The notes under the pieces: model-generated | Database searches by the model: none | What the model was told of the DNA's origin: nothing | The model's input: the letters and a program-made list of their open reading frames with translations, nothing else | From: an uncultured Gammaproteobacteria bacterium | GTDB lineage: Bacteria > Patescibacteriota > Microgenomatia > Levybacterales > UBA12049 | Length of the DNA: 64,000 bases | Direction: 5' to 3' | Assembly: GCA_964637955.1 (NCBI GenBank) | Contig: CAZWXQ010000004.1 | Coordinates: 81,296-145,295, forward strand | Made by a program: the position numbers and the translations under genes | In this document: one piece after another, positions 15,352-35,801 of the stretch | How positions within the stretch are numbered: position 1 is the first letter of the stretch | Layout: every line of letters begins with the position of its first letter

Positions 15352-15426
15352 AATGAGCGTAGTGTAAAGGAGTTAGCCCAAATAGGCTTGATATTAGAAT
15401 TACAAGCGCCTAACAATTGCCTTATA

Positions 15427-15500
15427 TTTACCATTTACCATTTATGATTTATGATTTATGATTTATGATTTATGATTTACTAAATACCATTTATGATTTA
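15427..15500. repeat. tandem heptamer array (TTTACCA x2, TTTATGA x5, then TTTACTA/TTTATGA variants)
   Basis: Read directly: ccatttaccatttatgatttatgatttatgatttatgatttatgatttactaaataccatttatgatttac, immediately upstream of a four-helix-bundle gene. Confidence 0.8.
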
Positions 15501-15548
15501 CTAAAAATTATTTACTATTTTACATTTACGATTTATCATTTAAATAAT

Positions 15549-15914
15549 GTGAATTCTCAAAAAGAAAAATTAGAATTACGACTGAAAAATTTTGGAATTG
15601 AGATCATTAAATTAGTTCGAGTATTACCCAAATCAGAAGAAAATAAAATTTTTGCAAATCAGATCATTAGATCCTCAACATCAATTGGTGCGAATTATGC
15701 TGAGGCAATCTATGGCCAAACAAAACAAGAATTTTTCCACTGTCTTAATATCTGCAGAAAAGAAACAAACGAAACACTTTACTGGCTGGAAATGATTTTA
15801 CTTACAAATCCAAGCTACAATAAGCAAATTGATATTTTAATTCTCGAGAACAAAGAATTACTTAGAATATTTATAAGCTCTGTTAAAACAATTAGCACAA
15901 AAAATGATAAATGA
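15549..15914 (+). CDS. four-helix-bundle protein (23S rRNA intervening-sequence protein family)
   Basis: KNFGIEIIKLVRVLPKSEE...IRSSTSIGANYAEA signature. Likely GTG start at 15549, in frame with the longer track ORF 15465.. whose N-terminus is repeat-encoded. Confidence 0.7.
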   Translation: MNSQKEKLELRLKNFGIEIIKLVRVLPKSEENKIFANQIIRSSTSIGANYAEAIYGQTKQEFFHCLNICRKETNETLYWLEMILLTNPSYNKQIDILILENKELLRIFISSVKTISTKNDK

Positions 15915-15938
15915 TATTTGGTATATAATAATTGATAT

Positions 15939-17276
15939 ATGAACGAAAACGAACTTGTGTTTGAGCGGTTTGAAGCTCTTTATCCTCCAGAAAGCTGGGA
16001 AAATGAAATTAAAAAGTTAGTTGGATTTATTTACTCAGGGAATTCAACTGAAATCATTGGATTTCCAGGTGTTGGAAGATCAAATTTACTTGGAGTACTT
16101 TCCTACAACAGAGCCTGCCGAGAACATAACCTTGGAGACAAACAAACTCAATTTCATTTTATACTCATGAATTTTACCGAAATGAGGAAAAAGAGCGAGC
16201 TTGAAGTCTTAAAATTCTTTTTTATCTCGATCGTTGATTCCTTAAAAGAGAGAAAAATGACCGAAGAAGCCCAGAGAGCCCAGGCGCTTCTTAAAGAAAG
16301 CTTTGAGATCCAGGATCAACAAGTTATCTTGCAAGGCTTAAAAAAGCTCGTTGATTATATTTCAATTGAAAAAAACTTAACCCTAGTATTCTTAATCGAC
16401 AGATTTGAAGAATATATTCCATATGTTACTCCGGAATTTTTCACTGATCTTAGGGCTCTTAGAAATAGAGCAAAATATAAATTTTCCGTAGTCTTCTCGG
16501 TGAATAGACCGTTTCAAGAATTACTAGATCCTGCTACTTATATTGATTTTAATGAATTCCTAGATGGTAATGAGATATATCTTCCCTTAAAAGACAATGC
16601 AAGTTTAAATTTTAGAATCGGCTTTCTGCAAATGAAAGCAAATGAAAATATTTCTCTGGAAAAAATAAACGAGGTATTAACCTTAACATCTGGACACGGA
16701 AAGCTAACCAGACTTTCTATCGAAGCTTTAATGGAAACAGAAGATGTTGACGACTTAAAATCACTTCTACTTAAAAGGCAAAAAATAATTTCTCTTTTTA
16801 ATGAAATCTTAAAAGGCCTAACTCCTTCAGAGCAAAATTATCTTAAAGATTTTGATCCTAAATATAAATCTGAATATCTTGAAAAAATTCATCTTATAAC
16901 TGAGGGTAAAATTTCAATTCCTCTTTTCGAAAGCTTCATAAATGAGCAAAAAAATAATCCTACAGAAGTAAAATCAGAAAAAATTACTTATAATCCTGAT
17001 ACTAACGAAATAAAAGATGGGGAAACTGTACTTTCTGATTCTCTAACATCTTCTGAATATAAATTATTAAAATTTCTAGTAGAAAACGAAGGAAAAATCC
17101 TAGAAAGAGATGAAATAATTAATGCTGTTTGGAAAGATCTATCCTCTACTGCAGGCGTGAGCGAACAAGCGCTTGACCAGCTAATCTTTAGGGTCAGGAA
17201 AAAAATTGAAGAAAATCCGAACACTCCAATCCATCTCCAAACCATAAAAGGGCGGGGATTTAAATTTACCACATAA
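15939..17276 (+). CDS. P-loop (AAA-like) NTPase fused to C-terminal OmpR/PhoB-type winged-helix DNA-binding domain (transcriptional regulator)
   Basis: Walker-A-like GFPGVGRSNLLGVL (Lys replaced by Arg). C-terminal trans_reg_C-like segment SSEYKLLKFLVENEGKILERDEIINAVW...LIFRVRKKIE...IHLQTIKGRGFKF. Confidence 0.65.
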   Translation: MNENELVFERFEALYPPESWENEIKKLVGFIYSGNSTEIIGFPGVGRSNLLGVLSYNRACREHNLGDKQTQFHFILMNFTEMRKKSELEVLKFFFISIVDSLKERKMTEEAQRAQALLKESFEIQDQQVILQGLKKLVDYISIEKNLTLVFLIDRFEEYIPYVTPEFFTDLRALRNRAKYKFSVVFSVNRPFQELLDPATYIDFNEFLDGNEIYLPLKDNASLNFRIGFLQMKANENISLEKINEVLTLTSGHGKLTRLSIEALMETEDVDDLKSLLLKRQKIISLFNEILKGLTPSEQNYLKDFDPKYKSEYLEKIHLITEGKISIPLFESFINEQKNNPTEVKSEKITYNPDTNEIKDGETVLSDSLTSSEYKLLKFLVENEGKILERDEIINAVWKDLSSTAGVSEQALDQLIFRVRKKIEENPNTPIHLQTIKGRGFKFTT

Positions 17277-17314
17277 ATCTAAGATGAATGATTTAAGATT
17301 AATGAATAAAGAGC

Positions 17315-17767
17315 ATGAAAGACGGAAAGATTGAGTCATTTACCGATTTAGTGGTATGGCAAGAGGGTCATAAGCTTGTTGTTGAAATCTACATGATTAC
17401 CAAAGACTTTCCAAACGAAGAAAAATATTCCACAACTGATCAGATGAGAAGAGCTTCTTCATCAGTCACAGCTAATATTGCAGAAGGATTTGGAAGACAA
17501 GGTATTAAAGAAAAAATCCAATTTTATTATCTTTCCAAAGACTCCCTTTCTGAATTAAAAAATTTTCTCTTCATTGCAAGGGATGTGGGATATTTATCAG
17601 AGGTCAAATTCAATTACTTATTGGAAAATTCAAACACAGTTGACAAACTTTTGCAGGGTCTTATTAGAAAAGTAAAACCTTCATCAATCCTTAATCTTAA
17701 ATCATCAATCTTCATAGAGGTTGCAATCTTTTCAACTCTATTCGGCTGTAGCTTTATGAAGAATTGA
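17315..17767 (+). CDS. four-helix-bundle protein (23S rRNA IVS protein family)
   Basis: DLVVWQEGHKLVVEIYMITKDFPNEEKYSTTDQMRRASSSVTANIAEGFGR signature. Confidence 0.75.
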   Translation: MKDGKIESFTDLVVWQEGHKLVVEIYMITKDFPNEEKYSTTDQMRRASSSVTANIAEGFGRQGIKEKIQFYYLSKDSLSELKNFLFIARDVGYLSEVKFNYLLENSNTVDKLLQGLIRKVKPSSILNLKSSIFIEVAIFSTLFGCSFMKN

Positions 17768-17998
17768 AGAAGCAAGCGTCTGATAAGGAATGCCCTCTTC
17801 TATTGCTTTTCTTTTTAACCTTGAGAGATCACGTTCTGTTAATCGAATATTTATGTTTCGTGTTTTATTAAGAGTATTACGAGCAATATCCATAGCTTCT
17901 TTTTTCTCTTTTTCTTGATTTTCTAAAGGAATCCACTCGCCTCTTTCGACTTCATCCAAAAGCTTTTGCTCCTCATCTGTTAGCTTAAAATATTTCAT
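17738..17998 (-). CDS. brnA: BrnA-type antitoxin (RHH/CopG-like)
   Basis: C-terminal NIRLTERDLSRLKRKAIEEGIPYQTLASSILHKA, typical of BrnA. 3 nt downstream of the brnT-like gene. Confidence 0.7.
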   Translation of the reverse strand: MKYFKLTDEEQKLLDEVERGEWIPLENQEKEKKEAMDIARNTLNKTRNINIRLTERDLSRLKRKAIEEGIPYQTLASSILHKATAE

Positions 17999-18001
17999 AT
18001 T

Positions 18002-18277
18002 TTAATTTTTGATTATATATTTTTTTGTCATTTTTCTACTTGGAAATATTGTTTTTAAAAATCGTTTTTCTTCGTCATCGACGAATGGCACTAAAAATAC
18101 GTATTTATTTATATTTACTATGTACATCTTTTGATTTGGATAACGTTTTTTATTTGGATGATCAATAGTTTCTAATAAATTTCCATCATCAATTGCCTGA
18201 ACAACATCCTCAAAACAAACCCCTCTGTCCTCTTTTAACCATTCATTTTTCTTCTTATCCCAATCAAAATATTTCAC
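18002..18277 (-). CDS. brnT: BrnT-family toxin (DUF497 ribonuclease)
   Basis: N-terminal KYFDWDKKKNEWLKEDRGVCFEDVVQAI matches the BrnT motif (FEWDxxKxxxNxxKHGIxFEEA). About 90 aa. Own promoter TTGACA-17-TAAAAT at about 18290-18320 (minus strand). Confidence 0.75.
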   Translation of the reverse strand: MKYFDWDKKKNEWLKEDRGVCFEDVVQAIDDGNLLETIDHPNKKRYPNQKMYIVNINKYVFLVPFVDDEEKRFLKTIFPSRKMTKKYIIKN

Positions 18278-18339
18278 AACTTTCTTAAAATTATTTTATG
18301 ACAAATGATATTATATGTCAATAAATATATGCTTACCAC

Positions 18340-18478
18340 AGACCATAAAAGGCCAGGGATTTAAATTTAGCTCGTAAATAAAGCAAAATTCAAAAGTCAA
18401 AATGCAAAATTGCAATTCAAAAAGTCCAAATTTTTTATTTTTTACTATATCTTTTGACTTTTAATTTTTGAGTTTTAA
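18340..18478. repeat. repeat copy 1: 3' end of regulator gene (CCATAAAAGGCCAGGGATTTAAATT) plus about 100-bp element with inverted arms CAAAAGTCAAAA...TTTTGACTTTT
   Basis: About 97% identical to 19117-19260. First 30 nt match the last codons of the 15939..17276 gene (...TIKGRGFKF). Confidence 0.7.
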
Positions 18479-18501
18479 GTTTAATTATAGCGCAAATTCT
18501 A

Positions 18502-18530
18502 TTGACACTTGTATATTTCTGTAATATACT
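18502..18530 (+). promoter_or_regulatory. sigma70 promoter TTGACA-17 nt-TATACT driving a leaderless brnT transcript
   Basis: -10 ends 4 nt before the TTG/GTG start codon (18534/18537). Predicted TSS coincides with the start codon. Confidence 0.5.
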
Positions 18531-18533
18531 TAT

Positions 18534-18848
18534 TTGGTGACAAGAATATTACCAAAGCCCATTTCCTTTGAATGGGATAAAGGGAATATTGAAAAGAACT
18601 GGAACAAGCATAACGTCACACAAAAAGAAGCTGAAGAAACATTTATCAATAAGCCATTTTTTGTGGTAAATGACAAAAAACATTCTTCTAAAGAGGAGCA
18701 GAGATTTCAAGCATTGGGTAAATCAAAAAGTAACAGAAAATTATTTTTAGTTTTTACAATAAGAGAAATTAGCATTAGGATAATTTCTGCAAGAGATATG
18801 AATAAAAAAGAAAGGAGCATGTATGAAAAAATTAAAACCAATACCTGA
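18534..18848 (+). CDS. brnT: BrnT-family toxin (DUF497)
   Basis: ISFEWDKGNIEKNWNKHNVTQKEAEETF motif; 104 aa; overlaps downstream antitoxin by 26 nt. Confidence 0.75.
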   Translation: MVTRILPKPISFEWDKGNIEKNWNKHNVTQKEAEETFINKPFFVVNDKKHSSKEEQRFQALGKSKSNRKLFLVFTIREISIRIISARDMNKKERSMYEKIKTNT

Positions 18849-19095
18849 ATTTAAAAATGAAAACGAAGAAAGAGATTTTTGGGCTACTGCTGACTCGACT
18901 GAATATATCGATTGGTCTATGGCTGAGGAGGTAATTTTCCCAAATTTAAAATTTTCAACAGAATCAATTTCCCTCAGGCTCCCTTCTTTTTTACTAGCCA
19001 GGATTAAAGAGCTCGCTAACAAACAAGACGTACCATATCAATCTTTAATGAAAATTTATCTAAGTGAAAGGGTAAATAAAGAATTAAATAGTTAA
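18823..19095 (+). CDS. brnA: BrnA-type antitoxin (RHH)
   Basis: C-terminal ISLRLPSFLLARIKELANKQDVPYQSLMKIYLSERV. Confidence 0.7.
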   Translation: MKKLKPIPEFKNENEERDFWATADSTEYIDWSMAEEVIFPNLKFSTESISLRLPSFLLARIKELANKQDVPYQSLMKIYLSERVNKELNS

Positions 19096-19116
19096 AACGC
19101 CTTAATATCCTACCTC

Positions 19117-19408: not shown

Positions 19409-20590
19409 GTGAAGAGAAAATTAATTTATTTTATATTTAGTCTTTTTATATTAATCTCTCAATCATTAATCTTCGCTCCCGCCTTTTCCCCAAAAGCACA
19501 TGCTCTAAACGATTTATGGGACTGTAAAATTTCCTACATAGAGCCAAATCCCCTTACAGATAGCGATAAAAAAATTGACAAGATAACCATAAGCACAGGT
19601 GTTTCAACCCCAGGAAAATACAATGTTTATATAGATGATAAAGGAGGGGACGGCGATATTCATAGAATTAAATCACCCGTCAAATCAGGAGATCATCAAA
19701 TTACAATTGATACCCCATTTGATAAGGAAGGAAGAAGCGTAGATACTAACGACCCAACATTTAAACCTAACTCAACCCTTGATTTTTGGGTGACTCCAAA
19801 ATCAATGAACTCAGACATTTGGCCCGGCACACAGCTTAGCGAGATGGATAAAAGATCTTTTTGTAGAGTCAGTATAGATATTGGGGAAGGAATAGGGGGA
19901 AATGTAAACGAAAGCGAATGTAAAATTCTTGCATCTGGAGAAGGGGTTGGCAAGCCAGTACATCTTAATGTCACCTTTAAAGAAAACTCTGAATACTTAA
20001 ATAATAACTTTCTAATTATAGTTAAAAGCCTTACATCAGGCCAAGAAGTGGAAAGATACAGCCCATATAGCGCTAGCGATCTGCAGAATCCAGGAGTTGA
20101 ACTAAGTAAATTTGACGGGGTTAATCATGTACCCACTATTTTCGATGTTGATGGATATCAAGTAGATCTTCACACCAACGCCGGTCCTCCTTTATGCTCT
20201 TCAATTTTTACAGTAACAGAAACTGGAATTAACAATGCGAAAAGCGCATTCGATGCAGGACTTGGGTTTTTTGCCTGCTCCCCAGACGATCCACTAAATC
20301 CAAAAGAATACACTTGCCACACTGCTATTGGCGACGTTTCCACAGATCCTGAAGGGTTTATAAGAACAGTTTTGGCTTTAATTCTGGGACTAGCAGGCGG
20401 CATACTTCTGATAGTAATCATCTTAAACGGATACAAATTCATGGTTTCCCAAGGAGACCCTGAAAAAATTAAAGATGCCAGGGAAGGCATAGTAGCAGCC
20501 ATTATGGGAATCTTTCTTATCATATTTTCGCTTACTCTCCTAACCATAGTGACTTCAAATATTCTTGATATACCGGGATTTGGAAGCTAG
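19409..20590 (+). CDS. secreted protein with large N-terminal ectodomain fused to a C-terminal T4SS-pilin-like two-helix module
   Basis: Signal peptide MKRKLIYFIFSLFILISQSLIFAPA. C-terminal LILGLAGGILLIVIILNGYKFMVSQGDPEKIKDAREGIVAAIMGIFLIIFSL matches the module shared by the three downstream pilins. Confidence 0.6.
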   Translation: MKRKLIYFIFSLFILISQSLIFAPAFSPKAHALNDLWDCKISYIEPNPLTDSDKKIDKITISTGVSTPGKYNVYIDDKGGDGDIHRIKSPVKSGDHQITIDTPFDKEGRSVDTNDPTFKPNSTLDFWVTPKSMNSDIWPGTQLSEMDKRSFCRVSIDIGEGIGGNVNESECKILASGEGVGKPVHLNVTFKENSEYLNNNFLIIVKSLTSGQEVERYSPYSASDLQNPGVELSKFDGVNHVPTIFDVDGYQVDLHTNAGPPLCSSIFTVTETGINNAKSAFDAGLGFFACSPDDPLNPKEYTCHTAIGDVSTDPEGFIRTVLALILGLAGGILLIVIILNGYKFMVSQGDPEKIKDAREGIVAAIMGIFLIIFSLTLLTIVTSNILDIPGFGS

Positions 20591-21145: not shown

Positions 21146-21463
21146 ATGAAACTAATTTCTTATAAAATTCCAGGTGGCGAAGTGACCGGAGTAGAGGGCA
21201 TGCCAGATAAAGGCTGGGACAGCTTTCAAGGCCTTGTTACGTGGGGTATGACCGTTATCATGATCGGCGCTTCTCTACTTTGCCTTTTTCTTCTTATCAT
21301 GGGTGGGATTCAATGGATCACCTCAGGCGGAGACAAATCTGGGATTGAGGGTGCCAGAAAAAGAATAATTTATGCTCTAATCGGCCTCGTCATAATATTT
21401 TCGTCCTATTTTATAATTAATTTTGTGGGAGATTTTTTTAATTTAAATTTGCTAGGAATCTAA
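21146..21463 (+). CDS. T4SS pilin-like protein (CPR-type, two TM helices)
   Basis: TM1-IMGGIQWITSGGDKSGIEGARKRIIYALIGLVIIF-TM2 module, about 105 aa. Resembles the T4SS_pilin family described from Patescibacteria / VirB2-TrbC-like. Confidence 0.65.
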   Translation: MKLISYKIPGGEVTGVEGMPDKGWDSFQGLVTWGMTVIMIGASLLCLFLLIMGGIQWITSGGDKSGIEGARKRIIYALIGLVIIFSSYFIINFVGDFFNLNLLGI

Positions 21464-21492
21464 AGAAACTGCCCTTCTCTAGAACTCCCCTC

Positions 21493-21942
21493 TTGACAAA
21501 CATTTTAAAACTCCTTACGATCATATTATCTATGAAAAAAGTATCTGCTCTTATTTTTTCCGGAGCTACTTATCTTTCCCTAGCTACGCATGCTTTTGCA
21601 GAAACTCCTATCAACCCTTGTCCAGAAGCCAATCCTGACGGAGCAAATTTTAACATACTTTGCACATTAGCTCCGGGCGGTAGCCTCATATCTTTTCTCG
21701 TTACTGTTGCATTTATTGCAGCCTCTCTCATAGCACTGGGTTTTCTTATTTTTGGGGGAATAAAATGGATAATGTCAGGTGGCGATAAGTCTGGAGTAGA
21801 AGCAGCAAGAAACATGATAGTTGCCGCTTTAGTTGGACTTGTAATTACGTTTTTAGCATATCTCATAATAAACGTCGTATTTACATTCTTTAATTTAGGG
21901 AGCATTACTGGCCTTGTACTCCCTACAATTCCTACGCATTAA
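21493..21942 (+). CDS. T4SS pilin-like protein
   Basis: Signal-like N-terminus, then IFGGIKWIMSGGDKSGVEAARNMIVAALVGLVITF module. Probable true start at internal MKKVSAL (about 21532). Confidence 0.65.
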   Translation: MTNILKLLTIILSMKKVSALIFSGATYLSLATHAFAETPINPCPEANPDGANFNILCTLAPGGSLISFLVTVAFIAASLIALGFLIFGGIKWIMSGGDKSGVEAARNMIVAALVGLVITFLAYLIINVVFTFFNLGSITGLVLPTIPTH

Positions 21943-26523: not shown

Positions 26524-26524
26524 T

Positions 26525-26878: not shown

Positions 26879-27013
26879 TTTTCACAACTGAGGCTAAAAC
26901 GTCTTAAATTTGATCCACTTTGATTTCTTGAATTAGGATTTTTCACGGTCAATACTTATATACAGTTGCTAGATAATAGTTTCTAGTTATTAGTGTTTTG
27001 AATATAAACTGAA

Positions 27014-27394
27014 TTGATGAGCAACATTAAATCACATAAAGACCTAATTGTATGGCAAAAAAGCATACTTCTCGTAAAAGAGATCTTTATTTTAACTGAT
27101 TCTTTTCCTCAATCTGAAAAATTTGGTATCACAAATCAGATGAGAAGGGCTGCAGTTTCTATTCCTTCAAATATTGCTGAGGGCTATGGAAGGAAATCAA
27201 CTAAAAGCTTTAATCAGTTTTGCTCTATAGCATATGGTTCAGCCTTAGAATTAGAAACTCAAATGATAATTTCTAAAGAACTTGAACTTGGTACAAATAA
27301 TTCTTTTACACTTTCAGAAGATTTATTGCTAGAAGTATTAAAGATGCTTAATAAATTAACAGGAAGTTTTAAAAGTATAACTACTAGTATCTAA
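27014..27394 (+). CDS. four-helix-bundle protein (23S rRNA IVS protein family)
   Basis: HKDLIVWQKSILLVKEIFILTDSFPQSEKFGITNQMRRAAVSIPSNIAEGYGR. Flanked by near-identical 12-13-bp direct repeats TCTAGTTAYTAGT (26982-26994 and 27398-27410). Confidence 0.75.
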   Translation: MMSNIKSHKDLIVWQKSILLVKEIFILTDSFPQSEKFGITNQMRRAAVSIPSNIAEGYGRKSTKSFNQFCSIAYGSALELETQMIISKELELGTNNSFTLSEDLLLEVLKMLNKLTGSFKSITTSI

Positions 27395-27419
27395 AATCTA
27401 GTTACTAGTTACTAATTTT

Positions 27420-29630: not shown

Positions 29631-31879
29631 ACCTACTTAAAAAAAATAAAAATCAGGATCAAAACATAGGCGTTCATAAGGTACCACAGTCGAGCTGGGA
29701 TCCAACGCCAAACCCTAATTCACATCCAAATCAAAAATTTGAGAGAGGAATGAATTCAGTAACTGACATTATCGCTCCTTCTTCTGTTGAAGTTGATTTT
29801 GGCCACATACGAGTCGGAGACAAATTTCATAGAACATATTTCGTGGTTGGATATCCCAGATTTGTTTCGGCAAACTGGCTCGAGCCATTAATAGACTTTG
29901 ATGAATCTTTAAACATCTCAATGTTCGTTTATCCTGCTTCTTCAAGCGATGCCCTTGATGACATAAAAAGGAAAATTGCTGAAATGCAGGCAACGCTTGA
30001 ACAGCAAGAACAAGACCATAAAGTCCTTGATCCCCGTGTAAGCGCAGCTCTTGAAGATGCAATGGCTGTACAAGAAGAATTAGCAAAAGGAATTGAAAGA
30101 TTTTTTCAGTATAGTCTATATATCACGCTTGTTGCAGATGATGCTAAAGCAATCGCTGACGCAAGTAAGCGGTTAAAAACCCTGCTAGCCTCAATTTTAA
30201 TTATGGCCAAACCTGCCACTCTTCAAATGGAAGCTGGTTTTAAAGCATCAATTCCGCTTGCCCAAGACCAATTATATTTGAGTAGAAACATGGATACTAC
30301 TAGTCTTGCTTCTACATTTCCTTTCACTTCAGCAACGCTTACTCAAGACAAAGGCGTTATGTACGGCTTGAATCAGCTTAACGGCTCGTTAATAATTTTT
30401 GATAGGTATTCCCTTGAAAACGGCAATGAAGTAGTTTTTGGAAAATCAGGAGCCGGAAAATCATATTTAATTAAGCTTGAGATGATGAGACAATTCATGT
30501 TTGGAACTGAAGTAATCGTAATCGATCCTGAAGGAGAATATGGCTCAATCACAAACGCTCTGGGAGGAGAATATCTGGAATTTACTCCGGCTTCCCCAAT
30601 TAAAATCAATCCATTTGATTTAAGCGGAAGATATGAAGAAGGACAAAACGAACTAGGCCTGAAAATTCTTTCTCTCCATGCACTTTTAAGAATTGTCTTG
30701 GGAGAAATCGATGCACAACACGATGCTATTCTTGATCGGGCTCTTGTCGAAACATATAAGCTTCGTGGAATTACCACAGACCCAAGTACACAAAATAGAC
30801 AGCCTCCACTTATGGAAGACCTCTACAAGGTCCTACTTGGCATGGAGGATGAAGTTTCCCGCGATCTTGCCCTACGACTGGAGAGGTTTATAAAAGGCAG
30901 CATGGCAGGTATTTTTAATCAACAATCAAACTTTGACATTAAAAACCCTATGACTGTATTTTCAACAAGAGGCCTTGAAGATCAGCTCCGCCCTGTAGCT
31001 ATGCAGATAATTTTGGATTTTATCTGGACTAGAGTCAGAAAAGATTTGAGAAAGCGACTACTTATTCTTGATGAGGCATGGTATTTGATGAAATATCAGG
31101 ATTCAGCTTCATTTATTCACGGCATTGCGAAACGCGCTAGAAAATATTATCTTGCTTTAACTACTGCAACTCAAGATGTTCAGGATTTCCTTTCAACCGA
31201 TTATGGCAAGGCAATATTATCTAACTCCTCTATTCAAATGCTTTTAAAACAAAGCCCTACCGAAATCGATCTTGTTTCTCAAATCTTTTATCTTTCTGAG
31301 CAAGAAAAGCAACTTCTTCTATCAGCAAATGTGGGCGAGGGTCTTTTCTTTGCAGGCCAATCTCATGTGGCCATGAGAGTCGTTGCTGCTCCGTTTGAGC
31401 ATAATCTAATTACTTCAAACCCCGAAGAACTTTTAAAAAGACAGGAAAAAGATCGAATAATGAATTCAAATACTTTTGGTGCACCTCAAAATCTTGGAGA
31501 AGCAAAAAATGTTAGTGATCCTATGGATTCAGTTAATCAGAATCAAGCATCTCAAACTCCCGAACAGGCTGCTCCACAATTTATAACTTATCAAAACCAA
31601 CCAATGATAAGTAATGCTTCTCCTTTAATCGCTCAAAACCCAGGCCAGGCTGCTTCTCAACCTCAAGCAACACAACCAATTTCATCTATTCATCAACTTA
31701 CTGCTCAACAGCCGGTTTCGAACCTTCAATCAACGCCCTTACAAGCTCCTGCGCCTGCTCCTGAGCAATTCAATCCAAGCATGTTAGTTGAGCCAGGCGT
31801 TAATCCCCCACCTCCAATTCAATTTCCAACCCAAATAACGAATCAGCCAACAAACCAAAATGACCCAAATATTAAATAA
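29627..31879 (+). CDS. virB4: VirB4/TrbE-family T4SS ATPase (ATPase domain) with C-terminal Q/P-rich tail
   Basis: Walker A VVFGKSGAGKSYLIK, Walker B RLLILDEAWYLM. Conserved IAPSSVEVDFGHIRVGDKFHRTYFVVGYPRFV block. Last roughly 130 aa are low-complexity Q/P/N-rich. Confidence 0.8.
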   Translation: MNLLKKNKNQDQNIGVHKVPQSSWDPTPNPNSHPNQKFERGMNSVTDIIAPSSVEVDFGHIRVGDKFHRTYFVVGYPRFVSANWLEPLIDFDESLNISMFVYPASSSDALDDIKRKIAEMQATLEQQEQDHKVLDPRVSAALEDAMAVQEELAKGIERFFQYSLYITLVADDAKAIADASKRLKTLLASILIMAKPATLQMEAGFKASIPLAQDQLYLSRNMDTTSLASTFPFTSATLTQDKGVMYGLNQLNGSLIIFDRYSLENGNEVVFGKSGAGKSYLIKLEMMRQFMFGTEVIVIDPEGEYGSITNALGGEYLEFTPASPIKINPFDLSGRYEEGQNELGLKILSLHALLRIVLGEIDAQHDAILDRALVETYKLRGITTDPSTQNRQPPLMEDLYKVLLGMEDEVSRDLALRLERFIKGSMAGIFNQQSNFDIKNPMTVFSTRGLEDQLRPVAMQIILDFIWTRVRKDLRKRLLILDEAWYLMKYQDSASFIHGIAKRARKYYLALTTATQDVQDFLSTDYGKAILSNSSIQMLLKQSPTEIDLVSQIFYLSEQEKQLLLSANVGEGLFFAGQSHVAMRVVAAPFEHNLITSNPEELLKRQEKDRIMNSNTFGAPQNLGEAKNVSDPMDSVNQNQASQTPEQAAPQFITYQNQPMISNASPLIAQNPGQAASQPQATQPISSIHQLTAQQPVSNLQSTPLQAPAPAPEQFNPSMLVEPGVNPPPPIQFPTQITNQPTNQNDPNIK

Positions 31880-31893: not shown

Positions 31894-34383
31894 ATGGACG
31901 ATAAAGATACGCTTTTAAGAGGCGCCAAAGCATTTGCCAGCAGATATACTCATCTCTCTGCAGAAGACCAAAGGACCGCACTATCAGCAAGACATCCGCG
32001 AGATTTGCAAAGAATCGCAGGAGACGGCGCAGAAGAATTATTTCAAAATCTTGAGGCCTTTAGACAATTAGAATCTGAGGGTTTTAATTTCACTCTTACA
32101 CAAGCTTCAGCGCAAAACAACAAGCCAAGTGCCGCTAGCAACAGAGCGAGTGGCGCCATTGCAGGTGCTGGCCTTGTGGCAGCAGCAGGGGCACAAAGCC
32201 TCATGGAAGATAAAAGCTATGAAGGATATAAAAAAAGTTTTAAAAAAATGGCAGAGGACGCTGGAAAGCAATGGGAAAAGGAAGAGGAAAGATTAAAAAA
32301 AGAGGAAGAAGAGTTTAGAAAAAAAGGTAAAACTCCACCAGAGCGCGATCCAAATAGGTTTACTTCGAAAGAAGAATATATGGATAGTCACTTGCGAACT
32401 TCTCATGACTACTTGGCGTCAACTGATCCTAAAAAGGCCAAGAAATGGGCACAGGAACATCCTGAAGATATGCATCTCTCTAGAGCAATAGATCGAATGG
32501 CTGTTTTTGATAAAAAGCTAACTTTTGAAGAGTTTAAACAAATAAGACAGAGGTATATAGAAAAAGCTGCCATAGCCGGCGCGACACCTGAGCAAACAAT
32601 TGAACTTCAAGCAAGAGCGGCAAGCGAAATGAACAATCTTTTAGTCAGTGCAAATCCCGAGCTAGCTAAAAAGGGAGCAACTTTACATGGAGATAGAGGA
32701 CTAACTACAGCTCATAACGCAAACAGACAGCGCCAAATTGATTATGCCAAGAAGAATCAAAGCAGAATCTCAAAGCTCTTAGGCAGAGATCCAATTAAAG
32801 AGTTCGGGGAAGAAATAAAGCTTTCTGAAGAAAGTGGTGCATCAGCAGCTCAGTCTCAACAATCCCCAAGCGCTCCACAAGTGGCTCAAGCGGCTGCTGT
32901 GGGAGCAGCGACTGCAAATTATAGCAATGGCGATGAATCCATGGAAGAAATGGAACCTGACGTTCCTCCTCCACCACCTCCAATGTCAACAAAACCAATG
33001 CCCAAAATGCCGCCCTATCCATCGGACACTAAGCCCACGCCCCCTCCACCATCGCCAACCAGAGGAAAACCGAGAAGAGGAATCTCTGCTGGTGCACTTC
33101 CAGGTGCTTCTGGAGCAAAAAAAGCGATGAAAGCAGCCGGATTTTTAGCCAAGCTTGCGGCAAATGATCCAAGGGCATGGGCTAAGCTAATTGGCGCATT
33201 TATAGGAGCTTTTTTAATAATTTTCTTATTTATGCTTGCATACATTTGGGTAAATGCATGCGAAATCGCTGGCCAATATCCTTGGGGGCAAGATCTACTT
33301 CAGGCATTAGCTAAAAGAGACTGTGCAAGCGACAATCCAAGCGGCGTCCCACCGCCCCCAGAAGGAGTTACGATTATCAAAGAGGCTGTTGATGAAAACG
33401 GAGATAAGATAGAAAGTATTGCAAACCGCAAGCCAATTACCTATGTAATAAAAGTTACATATAATCCCGATGAAGCTACTGTTCCGTTAAATGATCTTAT
33501 ACTCTTTGATCGTCCTGATTTTGATTTTGACTTAGTGTCAGCAACTGAACCATATACTCCCAGGACTGATGCAATCGGCCCAATAATAAGCTGGGGCCTC
33601 TCTGACCACAATTCAGATGGAGACAATAATTTCGAATTCAGATTAGTGGTACTGCCAAAACAAGAGGACTTTAAGGCAATTAATCGTGCTTTTTTTAACG
33701 AAGAGGCGGCACCCTCAGGAGATTTAATGGTAGGAGCAGATGCTGCACCTTCAGACAATACATGCGGTGGCAAATATAACACGAAAAATAATCTAAATTT
33801 CGGAGATCCTGTTTGTTCATATACTCCTGCCAAATTTTCTGCGTACATAAAAGAGGTTGACCCAAATGCGAATAATTGGGAGTTCTGGGAAGACATCAGT
33901 ATTTCTGAAGGCTCAAGTCCGAACATAGGAGGTAATATAAACTCTCTTGGAGGAGGTGGTTCAGGAACATTCCAGATGTATCCATCCGATACTATTGACA
34001 ACCATGGGCTAAATGGAAAATCCTGGCCTCCTCCATCTAATGTCTCAAATCCGCCCCACGGAGATGTGACTTGGCAAAGGCAAATTCAACAAGCTGTTGG
34101 CTGGAATAACTACTTAAGTCGGGTTAATAGAAAATTTGTGTATTGGGGAACAGCATATTGTCTTTGCTATTTTGATAGTTATAGAAATAGCCATAAAGGC
34201 TGGTGCAATGACATAATTAGACTAAAAGCAACAAGATGCCCATACCAATGCGACCCTAACAGCTGCAGTATCTACACTGATCGGCTAGCAAAAAAGAGGG
34301 GAAATGCAGTCAATTGCAGACAATATAGATGCAATATAGGAAAAACAGGAAGAGATGCCAACACCGATAAGCCATGGAACTGA
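31894..34383 (+). CDS. bitopic membrane protein: charged/Pro-rich cytoplasmic N-domain, single TM, extracellular domain ending in Cys-rich region (possible VirB8/VirB10-like scaffold)
   Basis: TM WAKLIGAFIGAFLIIFLFMLAYIWV. PPPPPPMSTKPMPKMPPYP proline tract. C-terminal 10+ Cys. Function unassigned. Confidence 0.5.
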   Translation: MDDKDTLLRGAKAFASRYTHLSAEDQRTALSARHPRDLQRIAGDGAEELFQNLEAFRQLESEGFNFTLTQASAQNNKPSAASNRASGAIAGAGLVAAAGAQSLMEDKSYEGYKKSFKKMAEDAGKQWEKEEERLKKEEEEFRKKGKTPPERDPNRFTSKEEYMDSHLRTSHDYLASTDPKKAKKWAQEHPEDMHLSRAIDRMAVFDKKLTFEEFKQIRQRYIEKAAIAGATPEQTIELQARAASEMNNLLVSANPELAKKGATLHGDRGLTTAHNANRQRQIDYAKKNQSRISKLLGRDPIKEFGEEIKLSEESGASAAQSQQSPSAPQVAQAAAVGAATANYSNGDESMEEMEPDVPPPPPPMSTKPMPKMPPYPSDTKPTPPPPSPTRGKPRRGISAGALPGASGAKKAMKAAGFLAKLAANDPRAWAKLIGAFIGAFLIIFLFMLAYIWVNACEIAGQYPWGQDLLQALAKRDCASDNPSGVPPPPEGVTIIKEAVDENGDKIESIANRKPITYVIKVTYNPDEATVPLNDLILFDRPDFDFDLVSATEPYTPRTDAIGPIISWGLSDHNSDGDNNFEFRLVVLPKQEDFKAINRAFFNEEAAPSGDLMVGADAAPSDNTCGGKYNTKNNLNFGDPVCSYTPAKFSAYIKEVDPNANNWEFWEDISISEGSSPNIGGNINSLGGGGSGTFQMYPSDTIDNHGLNGKSWPPPSNVSNPPHGDVTWQRQIQQAVGWNNYLSRVNRKFVYWGTAYCLCYFDSYRNSHKGWCNDIIRLKATRCPYQCDPNSCSIYTDRLAKKRGNAVNCRQYRCNIGKTGRDANTDKPWN

Positions 34384-34427
34384 TTTCCTAAGCTTGACTT
34401 AAATTTCAATGTTGCTACTATAAATTT

Positions 34428-35228
34428 ATGCCCAAGAATAAACTCCTCCTTATCTTATTTCTTTTAATATTTACTTTTTCATTTACTCGAAAAGCAAACG
34501 CAGAAATAAGTCAACAAATAGTAAATGTTATTGTTGGAAATTTTATAGATGATGGGGAAAGCGGGGTTGGAGGTGGACCACTTCCGTCATGTGGAGAAAT
34601 CGATCAAAAACTTAAAGAAGATTTTGGAGTCATAATTCAAGAAGGTGGAGGCGGATGGGAGAGCTCTGGAAACTCAGATGGAACAGAAAGAGTTAATTGT
34701 GATACGAGACAAAAAATCTACAGAGCCTATTCTATTCCGGGACGGTCGTCCAGCTGGATGCGGTTACTTAAGCCTAATATTACATTTCGAATAGAGTGCT
34801 ATAGAGACAGTAGCGATCCTGAAAGTTCAGCGGGGTTTGTTAACCAACGAAACAGAATGCAGTTTAAAAACTGTTCAAATATCTCAATTAGAGATTTCGA
34901 ACCTTATGCGTTTTTATTTCTCCACGAAACAGGACACATAATAAAACATAGAAATTATCGAGAAATTCAAGATGGGTTTCCAAGAACTGCACTTTATAAT
35001 TCTGATAGAAACTGTTTTGCGGCTGAAGAACCGGTAATTAAAACCTACAACAGACGAGATCTTACGGATTATTCTCTTACGAGCGAATCTAGCGCAGAAG
35101 CTATTGCCTTATATGTATATAATAAAAAGAGGGGGCGCTATGCAAGTATTTCAAATTTTAGAAATGAATGTCCTGAAATTTATAATTGGGCTAGAAATAA
35201 AGTATACGGAGGATATACTTTTAATTAA
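34428..35228 (+). CDS. secreted protein with HExxH zinc-metallopeptidase-like motif
   Basis: Signal peptide MPKNKLLLILFLLIFTFSFTRKANA. FLFLHETGHIIKH (HExxH). Confidence 0.45.
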   Translation: MPKNKLLLILFLLIFTFSFTRKANAEISQQIVNVIVGNFIDDGESGVGGGPLPSCGEIDQKLKEDFGVIIQEGGGGWESSGNSDGTERVNCDTRQKIYRAYSIPGRSSSWMRLLKPNITFRIECYRDSSDPESSAGFVNQRNRMQFKNCSNISIRDFEPYAFLFLHETGHIIKHRNYREIQDGFPRTALYNSDRNCFAAEEPVIKTYNRRDLTDYSLTSESSAEAIALYVYNKKRGRYASISNFRNECPEIYNWARNKVYGGYTFN

Positions 35229-35230
35229 AA

Positions 35231-35797
35231 ATGCAAAAGTTTAATTTATCAACCAAAACTCTTTTAATCATCTCTGTATTACTATTTATTGGTTTTAATC
35301 TGGCTGCGTTTATGGCTATATCTACTAATATTTTCAAAAGTGTTTTTAAAAGTTCATATAGTTTTCAACTTCTCCAACCCGGGATTTCAACATCTGAGGA
35401 CATTGAAAAAACATTAGGCAAACCGGAAGCTACAGAAAATATTAACGGTGAAACTAAGCTAATATACTCCACAAAATCATTAGACCATAAAGACACTATT
35501 GTCTTAGAAAACAATAAGCTTAAGTATTCCATTGAAAAAATTTTTGATTCTAGTATGGGTACACTCTCAAGCTATAAAGCTAAATATGGTAATCCCAATT
35601 TAGTTCTATTTGATCCCGAAGATGATGTACTTGTATGGAGTATTTTCCTAAATGCTGGAATAGGTATAGCTACATTTGATGGTAACGAAATAGCTAAAAT
35701 TCTATATTTCAAGCCCCAAGAATTAGACGAATTTATGATTAACGTTGCCTCGCCTATTGGGTTATCAAAAGAAAAAGTGATTCATTCCGACGAATAA
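35231..35797 (+). CDS. hypothetical membrane-anchored/secreted protein
   Basis: 188 aa, N-terminal TM/signal (LLIISVLLFIGFNLAAFMAI); last gene of the island before dnaN. Confidence 0.5.
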   Translation: MQKFNLSTKTLLIISVLLFIGFNLAAFMAISTNIFKSVFKSSYSFQLLQPGISTSEDIEKTLGKPEATENINGETKLIYSTKSLDHKDTIVLENNKLKYSIEKIFDSSMGTLSSYKAKYGNPNLVLFDPEDDVLVWSIFLNAGIGIATFDGNEIAKILYFKPQELDEFMINVASPIGLSKEKVIHSDE

Positions 35798-35801
35798 TAA
35801 A

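What the first reader, a model, noticed from the sequence alone, without database searches (positions are those of the whole stretch)
15400..35800. CPR-style type IV secretion island wedged between a tRNA-Ser cluster and dnaN/oriC
Roughly 20 kb of non-core genes lies within the larger 7.7-35.8-kb accessory region described in the summary. It encodes four proteins sharing a two-helix pilin module (FxGG[IF][KQ][WY][IM]xSGGDK...), a PrgI/VirB3-like membrane protein and a VirB4 ATPase. Further out, 10692..12272 is a candidate VirB6-like polytopic protein and 12286..15351 is a giant tail-anchored protein. No relaxase, coupling protein (VirD4), integrase or oriT is visible. This argues for a secretion, DNA-uptake or host-attachment organelle rather than a conjugative element. 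The same window holds comFC and comM, consistent with the DNA-uptake role proposed for T4SS-like systems in episymbiotic CPR bacteria. Several island genes look GC-richer than the core by eye.
Basis: partly seen in the sequence, partly recalled or inferred. Interest (0 to 1): 0.7.

Follow-up and report, generated by a model that had tools for sequence, protein, structure and literature searches.

The report
Core patescibacterial type IV secretion locus
This is the chromosomal type IV secretion and pilus gene cluster that Patescibacteria (CPR bacteria) typically carry beside their replication origin: a machine already described in the literature and inherited vertically, not a foreign island.

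Summary
Four ORFs carry the T4SS_pilin module, 27420-28766 is PrgI/VirB3-like, and 29627-31879 is a VirB4 ATPase of the Gram-positive CD1110 family. I add two parts. 28983-29630 is the detached N-terminal domain of VirB4 (TrsD-like). 10692-12272 is VirB6-like, by predicted fold and by a TrbL hit in a homologue. No relaxase, coupling protein or integrase is present in the 64 kb.

The "island" reading fails. The order regulator, pilins, PrgI, TrsD-like, VirB4, dnaN, dnaA recurs in Levybacteria-like genomes. Its PrgI-to-VirB4 core sits beside dnaN/dnaA in 12 of the 16 related loci, including Shapiro- and Woykebacteria. At long range VirB4 is more conserved than DnaA. GC3 equals that of core genes.

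This is the Patescibacteria-clade T4SS already published (Wang 2023; Quinonero-Coronel 2025), including its lack of a relaxase, its pilin arrays and its position near the origin. The DNA-uptake link is weak.

Locus-specific points: IVP and BrnT/BrnA cassettes inserted in this genome only, and hypervariable proteins inside the conserved machine, some surface-exposed (24388-26523 is 33% identical in a relative whose DnaA is 96% identical).

Verdict: new member of a known kind; modest interest.

The parts
10692..12272 (+). VirB6-like polytopic membrane protein (526 aa, about 6 TM helices plus an N-terminal extracytoplasmic domain)
   Evidence: There are 679 homologues, and every named hit is patescibacterial (Levybacteria, Gottesmanbacteria). 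Homologue P0092 is 39% identical, and it hits Pfam TrbL/VirB6 at 32 bits (cutoff 25.9) over the region that aligns to residues ~320-450. The AF2 model has pLDDT 71. Its top 7 Foldseek PDB hits are all TrwI/VirB6 of R388 (best E 4e-3, TM 0.22/0.36). The protein itself has no direct Pfam hit.
12286..15351 (-). 1021-aa hydrophilic, Cys-free protein, a conserved neighbour of the VirB6-like gene; function unknown
   Evidence: A homologue sits at the same position in L008 (25% identity) and in the closest relative (72%). No Pfam, NCBIfam or PADLOC hit. No Walker A motif.
15939..17276 (+). Locus regulator: N-terminal domain with a deviant P-loop (GFPGVGRS) plus a C-terminal OmpR/PhoB-type winged helix
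   Evidence: Trans_reg_C scores 65.7 bits. PDB hits fall only in the C-terminal wHTH. The gene is conserved directly upstream of the pilin array in L003, L004, L006, L007, L008 and L019.
15430..15925 (+). Inserted cassette IVP1: a 23S_rRNA_IVP four-helix-bundle gene (15465-15914) with heptamer-repeat flanks; not part of the machine
   Evidence: Pfam 62.6 bits. Absent from the relative's 123-nt spacer. The two ends pair in the minimum-energy fold.
17279..19115 (.). Inserted block: IVP2 (17315-17767) plus two BrnT/CopG-antitoxin modules (17738-18277 minus strand; 18534-19095 plus strand). Copies of the regulator's last 47 nt follow the first module (18333-18379) and the block (19116-19162).
   Evidence: Pfam. 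Repeats D2 and D4. Alignment A4. Absent from the closest relative, where the regulator is followed directly by pilin 1.
19409..20590 (+). Pilin 1: signal peptide, a 280-aa variable ectodomain and a C-terminal VirB2-like two-helix module (candidate minor or tip pilin)
   Evidence: PF18895 at 40.8 bits. NF045849 Mbov_0395 pilin-like, E 3.9e-8. Against the closest relative only residues 279-392 align (86%); the ectodomain does not align.
21146..21463 (+). Pilin 2 (105 aa), VirB2-like
   Evidence: PF18895 at 30.1 bits. 80% identical in the relative.
21493..21942 (+). Pilin 3 (149 aa), VirB2-like
   Evidence: PF18895 at 21.9 bits, below the gathering score. 58% identical to pilin 2 over the module. 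63% identical in the relative.
22020..22829 (+). Pilin 4 (269 aa): VirB2-like module plus a Gly-run and a Cys-rich C-terminal extension (16 Cys)
   Evidence: PF18895 at 32.4 bits. The extension is absent from the closest relative, whose protein is 163 aa.
23039..24334 (-). Tail-anchored, Cys-free 431-aa protein; first gene of a lineage-specific hypervariable three-gene module
   Evidence: TM at residues 399-417. Only the C-terminal 60% aligns to the relative, at 54%. Absent from L001-L016. No family hit.
24388..26523 (+). Soluble, Cys-free 711-aa protein, extremely fast-evolving (candidate secreted substrate; inference only)
   Evidence: 33% identical to its positional orthologue in a genome whose DnaA is 96% identical. 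Only 23 cluster representatives among 1.84 billion. No Pfam hit in it or in its relatives.
26525..26878 (+). 117-aa protein, third gene of the module (77% identical in the relative)
27003..27416 (+). Inserted cassette IVP3 (gene 27014-27394), immediately upstream of the PrgI start codon
   Evidence: Pfam 128.8 bits. Absent from the relative's empty site. A 72%-identical copy sits at the same place in L005.
27420..28766 (+). PrgI/VirB3-like protein: two N-terminal TM helices, a P/Q-rich linker, a coiled coil and a C-terminal CarboxypepD_reg-like beta-sandwich
   Evidence: PF12666 at 46.7 bits; PF13620 at 29.3 bits, below cutoff. Present in all 14 loci that extend far enough upstream.
28983..29630 (+). 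TrsD-like protein, equivalent to a detached VirB4 N-terminal domain
   Evidence: It matches NCBIfam VirB4_plasma positions 98-285 of 894 (E 2.3e-11). The next gene matches positions 292-893. The two genes overlap by 4 nt. The gene is present upstream of virB4 in all 16 loci. The relative's orthologue carries a weak PF26593 TraC-like hit. hhalign of my shallow profiles against the N-terminus of the window's own VirB4 was not significant.
29627..31879 (+). VirB4 ATPase (Walker A GKSGAGKS at residue 272) with a disordered P/Q-rich C-terminal tail
   Evidence: NF045971 conju_CD1110 at 392.9 bits, above the cutoff of 325. P-loop_TraG at 95.5 bits. PDB 4ag5 VirB4 at E 1e-47, against TrwK at 2e-7.
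31894..34383 (+). Bitopic 829-aa protein: N-terminal 430 aa cytoplasmic, TM at 433-451, and an ectodomain with an Ig-like beta-sandwich plus a Cys-rich helical domain (candidate wall-spanning adhesin or hydrolase)
34428..35228 (+). Secreted HExxH protein (putative zinc metallopeptidase), occupying a variable 'hydrolase slot'
   Evidence: H166, E167 and H170 are invariant in the 4-sequence alignment. Signal-like N-terminus. No family or PDB hit. The closest relative has a Peptidase_M23 gene at this position instead.
35231..35797 (+). Small bitopic protein (188 aa), function unknown; VirB8-like only in size and topology
   Evidence: TM at 4-32. Homologues in L003, L006 and L008, plus a partial, contig-truncated match in L005. 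No hit. Replaced by an 88-aa ORF in the closest relative.
35802..38455 (-). dnaN (35802-36917) and dnaA (37085-38455): the fixed chromosomal anchor of the locus, at the origin
   Evidence: DNA_pol3_beta and Bac_DnaA Pfam hits on the relative's 92-96%-identical orthologues. Cumulative GC-skew minimum at 37-38 kb. Four of the 18 DnaA-box-like sites in the window fall between 36990 and 38441.

Best explanation
The region 10.7-35.8 kb is this genome's copy of the Patescibacteria-clade type IV secretion system. The genome looks like a Levybacteria-like member of the Microgenomates. The system descends from Gram-positive (MPF-FATA) conjugation machinery, is fixed in the chromosome beside dnaN/dnaA, and is inherited vertically.

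Shown by sequence:
- A split VirB4 ATPase (TrsD-like N-domain protein plus VirB4).
- A PrgI/VirB3 membrane partner.
- A VirB6-like polytopic protein.
- An array of four VirB2-like pilins, two of them with large variable extra domains.
- A dedicated OmpR-type regulator.
- Downstream of virB4, a bitopic protein with an adhesin-type Ig-like ectodomain and a secreted HExxH protein.

Inferred mechanism: the VirB4/TrsD hexamer docks on PrgI and the VirB6-like platform in the single membrane. It extracts pilins from the membrane and polymerises them into a short pilus that crosses the wall. The downstream proteins may open or span that wall. Variable pilin ectodomains contact the host cell, and the channel moves protein or other non-conjugative cargo between epibiont and host. 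The direction of transfer and the cargo are unknown.

The locus is not mobile. Only small cassettes (IVP genes, BrnT/BrnA modules) and a few hypervariable genes, several encoding surface-exposed proteins, differ between close relatives.
For: Component identities: VirB4 is in the CD1110 family above its curated cutoff; g28983 covers VirB4 model positions 98-285 and g29627 covers 292-893; PDB 4ag5, E 1e-47; VirB6-like.

Vertical inheritance and a fixed position:
- The order regulator, pilins, PrgI, TrsD-like, VirB4, g31894, (g34428, g35231), dnaN, dnaA, with the optional genes varying, recurs in L003, L004, L007, L008, L018 and L019, and in L005 and L006 up to the contig end.
- PrgI, TrsD-like, VirB4, dnaN and dnaA are kept in Shapirobacteria and Woykebacteria.
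- VirB4, DnaA and DnaN identities are 78-80, 75-81 and 60-64% in Levy-like loci, and 55-60, 37-46 and 31-39% in distant ones.
- One relative (L016) carries an intein in the VirB4 P-loop.
- GC3 matches core genes.

No relaxase, T4CP or integrase in 64 kb, nor among the called genes of the relative's 22-kb loci.

Literature: the same architecture, absence of a relaxase, pilin arrays and dnaA/dnaN proximity are described for Patescibacteria, Microgenomatia included (PMC12102498). The T4SS genes, pilin array included, are essential for epibiotic growth of S. epibionticum (PMC10633639).
Against: - No function was tested; direction of transport and substrate are inference.
- VirB8-like and VirB1-like roles are not established: g35231 and g34428 have no family hits, and the SLT-like motif in g31894 is unsupported by Pfam or PDB sequence searches.
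- VirB6 support is indirect: Foldseek E is only 4e-3 with low TM-scores, and only 1 of 40 homologues hits TrbL.
- I built no VirB4 tree, so placement inside the published monophyletic clade rests on nearest neighbours.
- A VirD4-like protein or a relaxase could be encoded elsewhere in the genome. PMC12102498 reports many T4CP homologues far from virB4.
Confidence: 0.85

Rival explanations
1. Protein-effector translocator with in-locus substrates. This is a specific version of the best explanation. The hypervariable Cys-free module 23039-26878, and perhaps 8122-9858 and 12286-15351, would encode the translocated effector(s), a membrane anchor and a small chaperone, delivered into or onto the host cell.
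For: - g24388 is 33%, g23039 54% and g31894 47% identical to their positional orthologues in a genome whose DnaA, DnaN and YidC are 92-96% identical.
- The module lies inside the operon, between the pilins and PrgI.
- g24388 belongs to a tiny family: 23 clusters among 1.84 billion.
- The four large hydrophilic proteins have 0 Cys in 2741 residues, against 13 expected (P about 1.6e-6).
- Wang 2023 favours protein export because T4CP and relaxase are lacking.
Against: - There is no secretion signal, effector domain or chaperone fold.
- No T4CP is available to recruit substrates.
- Fast evolution fits surface or structural proteins equally well.
- The module is absent from most related loci, so it cannot be the system's universal cargo.
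- VirB4, PrgI and the TrsD-like protein are also Cys-free.
Confidence: 0.2
2. DNA-uptake (ComB- or Ced-like) machine that imports host or environmental DNA, working together with comFC and comM.
For: - The H. pylori ComB and archaeal Ced systems are T4SS-related importers (PMC12102498; that ComB also lacks a relaxase and coupling protein is my own knowledge).
- VirB4 gives a weak CedB hit: 46.5 bits against a cutoff of 700.
- comFC and comM are in the window.
- ABY1-class T4SS loci co-localise with comF, recG and radA.
- CPR bacteria cannot synthesise nucleotides.
Against: - comFC lies 9 kb from the nearest T4SS-locus gene (10692) and comM 17 kb (35797), with unrelated genes between.
- comFC is split in both assemblies of the closest relative although the T4SS is intact.
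- In S. epibionticum, competence requires ComEC and type IV pili. Deleting comEC abolishes transformation but not viability, while the T4SS is essential.
- The VirB4 family assignment is to conjugative CD1110, far above the CedB score.
Confidence: 0.1
3. A recently acquired genomic island, or a decayed integrative conjugative element inserted at a tRNA-Ser gene next to the origin.
For: - tRNA genes flank the upstream side.
- Total GC of several genes exceeds the window average.
- The T4SS genes ultimately derive from conjugative elements (PMC12102498).
- TA modules lie inside the region.
Against: - Synteny with dnaN/dnaA is conserved across class-level lineages.
- VirB4 divergence tracks DnaA divergence and is slower at long range.
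- GC3 equals that of core genes.
- There is no integrase and no repeat of a tRNA 3' end bounding the region.
- The same tRNA set is present in the relative.
- The TA modules are small insertions specific to this genome.
Confidence: 0.03

Closest known systems
Patescibacteria-clade T4SS (Quinonero-Coronel et al. 2025, PMC12102498); experimentally, SEML1_0006-0019 of Southlakia epibionticum (Wang et al. 2023, PMC10633639)
   Same: - VirB4 of MPF-FATA ancestry.
- A TrsD-like gene directly upstream of virB4.
- PrgI/VirB3.
- An array of divergent PF18895 VirB2-like pilins.
- No relaxase or T4CP nearby.
- Peptidase/hydrolase-type genes just downstream of virB4.
- A position next to dnaA/dnaN.
   Different: - The paper reports VirB6 as 'scarce' in Microgenomatia. 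Here a VirB6-like family (679 homologues) is recognisable by fold and by a transitive TrbL hit, encoded 15 kb upstream of PrgI in this window, beyond the regulator and pilins.
- The paper reports VirB3 as seldom near virB4 in this class. Here it is two genes upstream.
- This locus has a dedicated P-loop plus OmpR-type regulator, a lineage-specific hypervariable three-gene module, and IVP and TA cassette insertions.
- No experimental data exist for Microgenomates.
Gram-positive conjugative T4SS (MPF-FATA): CTn2/CD1110 family, pCF10 Prg/Pcf, pIP501
   Same: - VirB4 meets the curated CD1110-family score.
- A PrgI-type VirB3.
- A VirB6/PrgH-type polytopic protein.
- Single-membrane architecture.
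   Different: - No relaxase, no T4CP (PcfC/VirD4) and no oriT-processing genes.
- Not on a mobile element.
- It has VirB2-like pilins, which these systems lack.
- VirB4 is split.
- VirB1-like and VirB8-like members are not recognisable.
Mycoplasma ICE transfer genes (Mbov_0395 pilin-like protein, Mbov_0397 VirB4)
   Same: Three of the four pilins hit the Mbov_0395 'pilin-like conjugal transfer protein' model (E 4e-8 to 1.5e-4). Both halves of the split VirB4 hit the Mbov_0397 model. A two-helix pilin-like protein beside VirB4 is therefore not unique to CPR among wall-poor monoderms.
   Different: All of these hits fall below the curated equivalog cutoffs. Mycoplasma ICEs are mobile, with a DDE recombinase, whereas this locus is fixed. 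The pilins here form a multi-gene array with ectodomains.
T4SS-related DNA importers: H. pylori ComB and the archaeal Ced system
   Same: VirB4-driven. No relaxase. Chromosomal.
   Different: The CedB match is weak (46.5 bits against a cutoff of 700). ComB has diderm core components (B7, B9, B10) that are absent here. The genetic evidence from Saccharibacteria points away from DNA uptake as the essential role.

Membership tests
Patescibacteria-clade T4SS | VirB4 ATPase with MPF-FATA affinity | tested here: met
   NF045971 conju_CD1110 at 392.9 bits, above the cutoff of 325. PDB 4ag5 at E 1e-47, against TrwK (MPF-T) at 2e-7.
Patescibacteria-clade T4SS | VirB4 falls inside the monophyletic Patescibacteria clade in a phylogeny | not tested
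   I built no tree with reference MPF classes. Indirect support: the 16 nearest genomic relatives (55-80% identity) include all six MAGs labelled as Patescibacteria, and the other ten (records titled 'uncultured Gammaproteobacteria') share the same T4SS gene cluster.
Patescibacteria-clade T4SS | Array of VirB2-like pilins (PF18895) near virB4 | tested here: met
   Four genes at 19409-22829. Three score above the gathering score. One scores below it but is 58% identical to its neighbour.
Patescibacteria-clade T4SS | PrgI/VirB3 homologue | tested here: met
   PF12666 at 46.7 bits, cutoff 27.
Patescibacteria-clade T4SS | TrsD-like (VirB4 N-terminal-like) protein next to virB4 | tested here: met
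   g28983 matches VirB4_plasma model positions 98-285, E 2.3e-11. It overlaps virB4 by 4 nt and is conserved in all 16 loci. hhalign against the N-terminus of the window's own VirB4 was not significant.
Patescibacteria-clade T4SS | No relaxase or T4CP associated with virB4 | tested here: met
   None among 57 ORFs in 64 kb, nor among the called genes of the relative's loci. The rest of the genome could not be examined.
Patescibacteria-clade T4SS | Chromosomal location near dnaA/dnaN (Microgenomatia, Paceibacteria) | tested here: met
   The last locus gene ends 4 nt before the dnaN stop codon. The GC-skew minimum is at 37-38 kb. The arrangement is conserved in 12 of 16 loci plus the closest relative.
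Patescibacteria-clade T4SS | VirB6 homologue | tested here: inconclusive
   There is no direct Pfam hit. One of 40 homologues hits TrbL at 32 bits. The top 7 Foldseek hits are all TrwI/VirB6, but E is 4e-3 and TM-scores are at most 0.36. The evidence is convergent but indirect.
Conjugative T4SS / integrative conjugative element | Relaxase (MOB) and oriT | tested here: not met
   No relaxase domain in the window. oriT is not testable by sequence alone.
Conjugative T4SS / integrative conjugative element | Type IV coupling protein (VirD4/TcpA) | tested here: not met
   VirB4 is the only large P-loop ATPase in the locus. Elsewhere in the genome this is not testable.
Conjugative T4SS / integrative conjugative element | Integrase or recombinase and att repeats at the borders | tested here: not met
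   No integrase. The repeat search found only tRNA paralogues and cassette-level repeats.
Horizontally acquired genomic island | Patchy distribution among relatives and atypical synonymous composition | tested here: not met
   The locus is present in every related locus. GC3 is 0.23-0.39 against 0.20-0.34 in core genes.
T4SS-type DNA importer (ComB / Ced) | Homology to CedA/CedB or ComB components, and functional coupling to competence genes | tested here: inconclusive
   CedB scores 46.5 bits against a cutoff of 700. comFC and comM are distant, and comFC is split in the relative. The function itself is not testable with these tools.

The most novel reading that the evidence does not exclude
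The lineage-specific three-gene module embedded between the pilin array and PrgI (23039-26878) may be the first identifiable in-locus substrate cassette of a patescibacterial T4SS. It consists of a tail-anchored protein, a 711-aa soluble protein and a 117-aa partner. Together with the swappable pilin ectodomains and the downstream 'hydrolase slot', it would be evolving in an arms race with the host: 33-54% identity between genomes whose housekeeping proteins are 92-96% identical. A separate point: the VirB6-like family found here would fill the 'missing VirB6' gap reported for Microgenomatia.
Probability: 0.2. Interest if true: 0.6.

Novelty: new member of a known kind. Interest (0 to 1): 0.3.

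Why it matters
The patescibacterial T4SS is the first T4SS shown to be essential for the bacterium that carries it, and its cargo and direction of transport are unknown. This locus adds nothing categorically new, but it gives a clean Microgenomates example with a fuller parts list: a split VirB4, a VirB6-like protein, a dedicated regulator, an adhesin-like bitopic protein and a variable hydrolase slot. It corrects the 'island' label. It also points to a short list of hypervariable, Cys-free proteins that could be tested as substrates or host-specificity determinants.

Tried and rejected
- **Island or ICE:** rejected on synteny, conservation, GC3, and the absence of an integrase or att repeats.
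- **g28983 against the N-terminus of the window's VirB4:** BLASTP and hhalign with shallow 16-sequence profiles were not significant. The relationship appeared only through the NCBIfam Mycoplasma VirB4 model.
- **g10692 family against PDB sequences:** the profile gave nothing. Only the fold search and one homologue's TrbL hit support a VirB6 assignment.
- **g34428 and g35231 profiles against PDB:** nothing.
- **PADLOC on ten unknowns:** nothing, so no defence-system reading.
- **g24388 as a possible paralogue of the giant protein g12286**, suggested by ~1000-aa relatives: rejected by BLASTP.
- **DGR idea**, prompted by the Avd-like IVP genes: no reverse transcriptase in the window (42074-42505 is RNase H) and no TR/VR-type repeat.
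- **DnaA-box count:** window-wide it is not above chance (18 observed, 17.4 expected). Only the local cluster at 36990-38441 is suggestive.
- **Source contig:** retrieval returned only a 2.9-kb Logan contig, so the rest of the genome could not be screened for VirD4 or a relaxase.

Full report
**What is in the sequence**

The window is a low-GC (about 0.35) chromosome segment. dnaN is at 35802-36917 and dnaA at 37085-38455, both on the minus strand. rnpA, yidC and jag follow on the plus strand. The cumulative GC-skew minimum is at 37-38 kb, so the origin is there. Five tRNA-Ser genes and one tRNA-Arg gene lie between 3.6 and 10.6 kb.

Pfam confirms the core of the observation:
- T4SS_pilin (PF18895) in 19409-20590, 21146-21463 and 22020-22829, above the gathering score.
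- T4SS_pilin in 21493-21942 just below it; this ORF is 58% identical to its neighbour over the module.
- PrgI in 27420-28766.
- P-loop_TraG, AAA_10 and DUF87 in 29627-31879.

**Additional components**

NCBIfam places the ATPase in the CD1110 family of VirB4-like conjugal ATPases, at 392.9 bits against a curated cutoff of 325. CD1110 is the CTn2 prototype of the Gram-positive MPF-FATA class. The best solved relative is the Thermoanaerobacter VirB4, 4ag5, at E 1e-47.

The 215-aa gene 28983-29630 overlaps virB4 by four bases. It matches positions 98-285 of the Mycoplasma ICE VirB4 model, while 29627-31879 matches positions 292-893 of the same model. Together they form a split VirB4. This is the 'TrsD-like' partner that the literature reports as the commonest neighbour of patescibacterial virB4.

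The polytopic protein 10692-12272 has 679 homologues; every named hit is patescibacterial (Levybacteria, Gottesmanbacteria). It has no direct Pfam hit. One 39%-identical homologue passes the TrbL/VirB6 gathering score over the equivalent helices. An AlphaFold model (pLDDT 71) finds TrwI/VirB6 of R388 as its seven best PDB matches, although at weak scores. I accept it as VirB6-like on convergent but indirect evidence.

15939-17276 combines a deviant P-loop domain with an OmpR/PhoB winged helix. It sits directly upstream of the pilins in all Levybacteria-like relatives that reach that far.

Three genes lie downstream of virB4:
- 31894-34383 is bitopic. Its modelled ectodomain contains a confident beta-sandwich that resembles the Ig-like domains of Gram-positive pilins and adhesins, including PrgB. 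It also has a Cys-rich helical domain whose SE...GxFQM...YWG motif recalls lytic transglycosylases. No search confirmed that resemblance.
- 34428-35228 has a signal-like N-terminus and an invariant HExxH.
- 35231-35797 is a small bitopic protein of unknown fold.

**Not an island**

A scan of one genome per species found 16 loci with a VirB4 relative. They include Levybacteria, Shapirobacteria and Woykebacteria, plus several MAGs mislabelled as Gammaproteobacteria.

In the Levybacteria-like loci the order is regulator, pilin array, PrgI, TrsD-like, VirB4, g31894-like, (g34428/g35231-like), dnaN, dnaA, rnpA, yidC. Even the distant classes keep PrgI, TrsD-like and VirB4 next to dnaN/dnaA.

| Comparison | VirB4 identity | DnaA identity | DnaN identity |
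|---|---|---|---|
| Near group | 78-80% | 75-81% | 60-64% |
| Far group | 55-60% | 37-46% | 31-39% |

. One relative, L016, carries a LAGLIDADG intein in the VirB4 P-loop, which fits a highly conserved gene.

The higher GC of some locus genes lies in codon positions 1 and 2, because the proteins are rich in Ala, Gly, Pro and Glu. GC3 (0.23-0.39) overlaps that of core genes (0.20-0.34). No integrase, relaxase or coupling protein occurs among 57 ORFs in the 64 kb. No att-like repeat bounds the region.

**Comparison with the closest relative**

A congeneric genome is available as JGI contig Ga0502760_0000160 (L019) and Logan SRR35794994 (L018, L020). Its DnaA is 96%, DnaN 92% and YidC 92% identical to the window's. 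It has the same layout from comFC through the VirB6-like gene, giant protein, regulator, four pilins, a three-gene module, PrgI, TrsD-like, VirB4 and the g31894 homologue to dnaN. The whole arrangement is more compact.

The following are missing in that relative, and so were gained or lost since the two genomes diverged:
- the five 23S_rRNA_IVP genes or fragments;
- both BrnT/CopG-antitoxin pairs;
- the methyltransferase at 6625-7302;
- the tail-anchored protein at 8122-9858.

Where the window has the HExxH protein plus g35231, the relative has a Peptidase_M23 gene plus an 88-aa ORF. This is a variable 'hydrolase slot', matching published reports of peptidase and lysozyme genes downstream of virB4.

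Identity to the relative varies widely across the locus:

| Gene | Identity to closest relative |
|---|---|
| Regulator | 88% |
| VirB4 | 85% |
| TrsD-like | 84% |
| VirB6-like | 83% |
| Pilin 2 | 80% |
| PrgI | 73% |
| Giant protein | 72% |
| Pilin 3 | 63% |
| g23039 | 54% (C-terminal part only) |
| g31894 | 47% |
| g24388 | 33% |

The ectodomain of pilin 1 does not align at all.

g24388 belongs to a family with only 23 cluster representatives among 1.84 billion. The four large hydrophilic proteins (g08122, g12286, g23039, g24388) contain no cysteine in 2741 residues, against 13 expected. The exposed domains, in contrast, are Cys-rich.

**Relation to what is known**

This system is already described. 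Wang et al. 2023 found an unusual T4SS in Southlakia epibionticum that resembles Gram-positive systems. It has an essential pilin array, no recognisable coupling protein or relaxase, and is essential for epibiotic growth. Its genes, SEML1_0006-0019, also lie at the start of the chromosome.

Quinonero-Coronel et al. 2025 surveyed 3,035 genomes and reported:
- a monophyletic patescibacterial VirB4 clade nested in MPF-FATA;
- TrsD, PrgI and VirB6 partners;
- PF18895 pilin arrays of 2-11 genes, especially in Microgenomatia;
- near-absence of relaxases;
- proximity to dnaA/dnaN in Microgenomatia and Paceibacteria, interpreted as a gene-dosage effect.

A 2025 review repeats this and speculates that the machine is a conduit for exchange with the host.

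The finding therefore matches the published picture point by point. What this locus adds is modest:
- a recognisable VirB6-like family in a class where VirB6 was reported 'scarce';
- explicit evidence that TrsD-like plus VirB4 equals a split VirB4;
- sub-threshold similarity of the pilins to the Mycoplasma ICE 'pilin-like' protein Mbov_0395, which suggests the pilin module need not have been borrowed from diderm systems;
- a dedicated regulator;
- a hypervariable in-locus module.

**How it most likely works**

The components are shown by sequence. The assembly is inferred by analogy with the R388 and Gram-positive systems. In that model the VirB4/TrsD ATPase docks on PrgI and the VirB6-like platform and polymerises VirB2-like pilins through the wall. 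The bitopic Ig-like protein and secreted peptidase help to span or remodel the peptidoglycan. Variable pilin ectodomains mediate host contact.

Cargo and direction of transfer are unknown. I rate protein or small-molecule exchange with the host above DNA uptake, for four reasons:
- competence in the one tested species depends on ComEC and type IV pili, and is dispensable, whereas the T4SS is essential;
- comFC lies 9 kb from the nearest T4SS-locus gene (10692) and comM 17 kb (35797);
- comFC appears split in both assemblies of the closest relative;
- the CedB match is marginal.

**Verdict**

'Island' is wrong, and the DNA-uptake link is weak. It is a new member of a known kind, of modest interest.

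Noticed in passing
window 15430-15925, 17279-17715, 20655-21140, 27003-27416, 28760-28985: There are five 23S_rRNA_IVP (four-helix-bundle, Avd-like) genes or gene fragments. Each sits in an intergenic spot just upstream of a T4SS gene start. Each is bracketed by arms built of 7-nt periodic repeats that pair end-to-end in the minimum-energy fold (17-36 long-range pairs in four of the five; arm-duplex z of -2.1 to -5.0 in those four and -0.6 for the short fragment at 28760-28985). They are precise ~420-470-nt insertions relative to the empty sites in the closest relative. Their positions differ among related loci. They look like intervening-sequence-type stem-loop cassettes outside rRNA, and are possibly mobile.
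   Followed up: partly
window 17232-17278, 18333-18488, 19116-19271: The last 47 nt of the regulator gene recur twice downstream, at 77% and 91% identity. Each copy is followed by a 40-nt-arm heptad-repeat hairpin (18384-18470 and 19167-19253). These repeats delimit two BrnT/CopG-antitoxin cassettes stacked in tandem between the regulator and the first pilin. The closest relative has none of this.
   Followed up: partly
L016 7346-11176: The VirB4 gene of one related genome (MAG CAYIXE01) encodes 1276 aa because an intein (Intein_splicing plus LAGLIDADG_3) interrupts the P-loop region.
   Followed up: partly
window 3959-4044 (also L019 6228-6313): A tRNA-Ser with anticodon ACT (A34) lies next to a normal tRNA-Ser(GCT) and is conserved in the closest relative. 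An A34 serine tRNA is unusual in bacteria.
   Followed up: no
window 8122-9858, 12286-15351, 23039-24334, 24388-26523: Four large hydrophilic, Ala/Glu/Lys/Pro-rich proteins contain no cysteine in 2741 residues (13 expected from core genes; Poisson P about 1.6e-6). Two are clearly tail-anchored. 8122-9858 also has an internal 65-nt tandem duplication (9081-9145 and 9165-9229) encoding N[IL]PIGPDGKP..W[DE]E.
   Followed up: partly
window 6625-10418 vs L019 8090-9721: There is a local rearrangement upstream of the VirB6-like gene. The tRNA-Arg(gcg)/tRNA-Ser(cga) pair is inverted relative to the closest relative, and the window has extra genes there (methyltransferase 6625-7302 and 8122-9858).
   Followed up: no
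window 299-710: Rfam detects a tmRNA gene (RF00023, 91.8 bits) that ARAGORN did not report.
   Followed up: no
L019 4498-5211 and L020 335-751: comFC of the closest relative is called as a 138-aa DZR_2 ORF in both assemblies, with the phosphoribosyltransferase part a separate 67-aa ORF in L019 (not called in L020). The window's comFC is an intact 234 aa. This may be pseudogenisation.
   Followed up: no
window 27900-28010 and 31560-31870: PrgI and VirB4 both carry long Pro/Gln-rich, apparently disordered segments that share a short DNA-level repeat (27975-28001 and 31658-31684, 78%).
   Followed up: no
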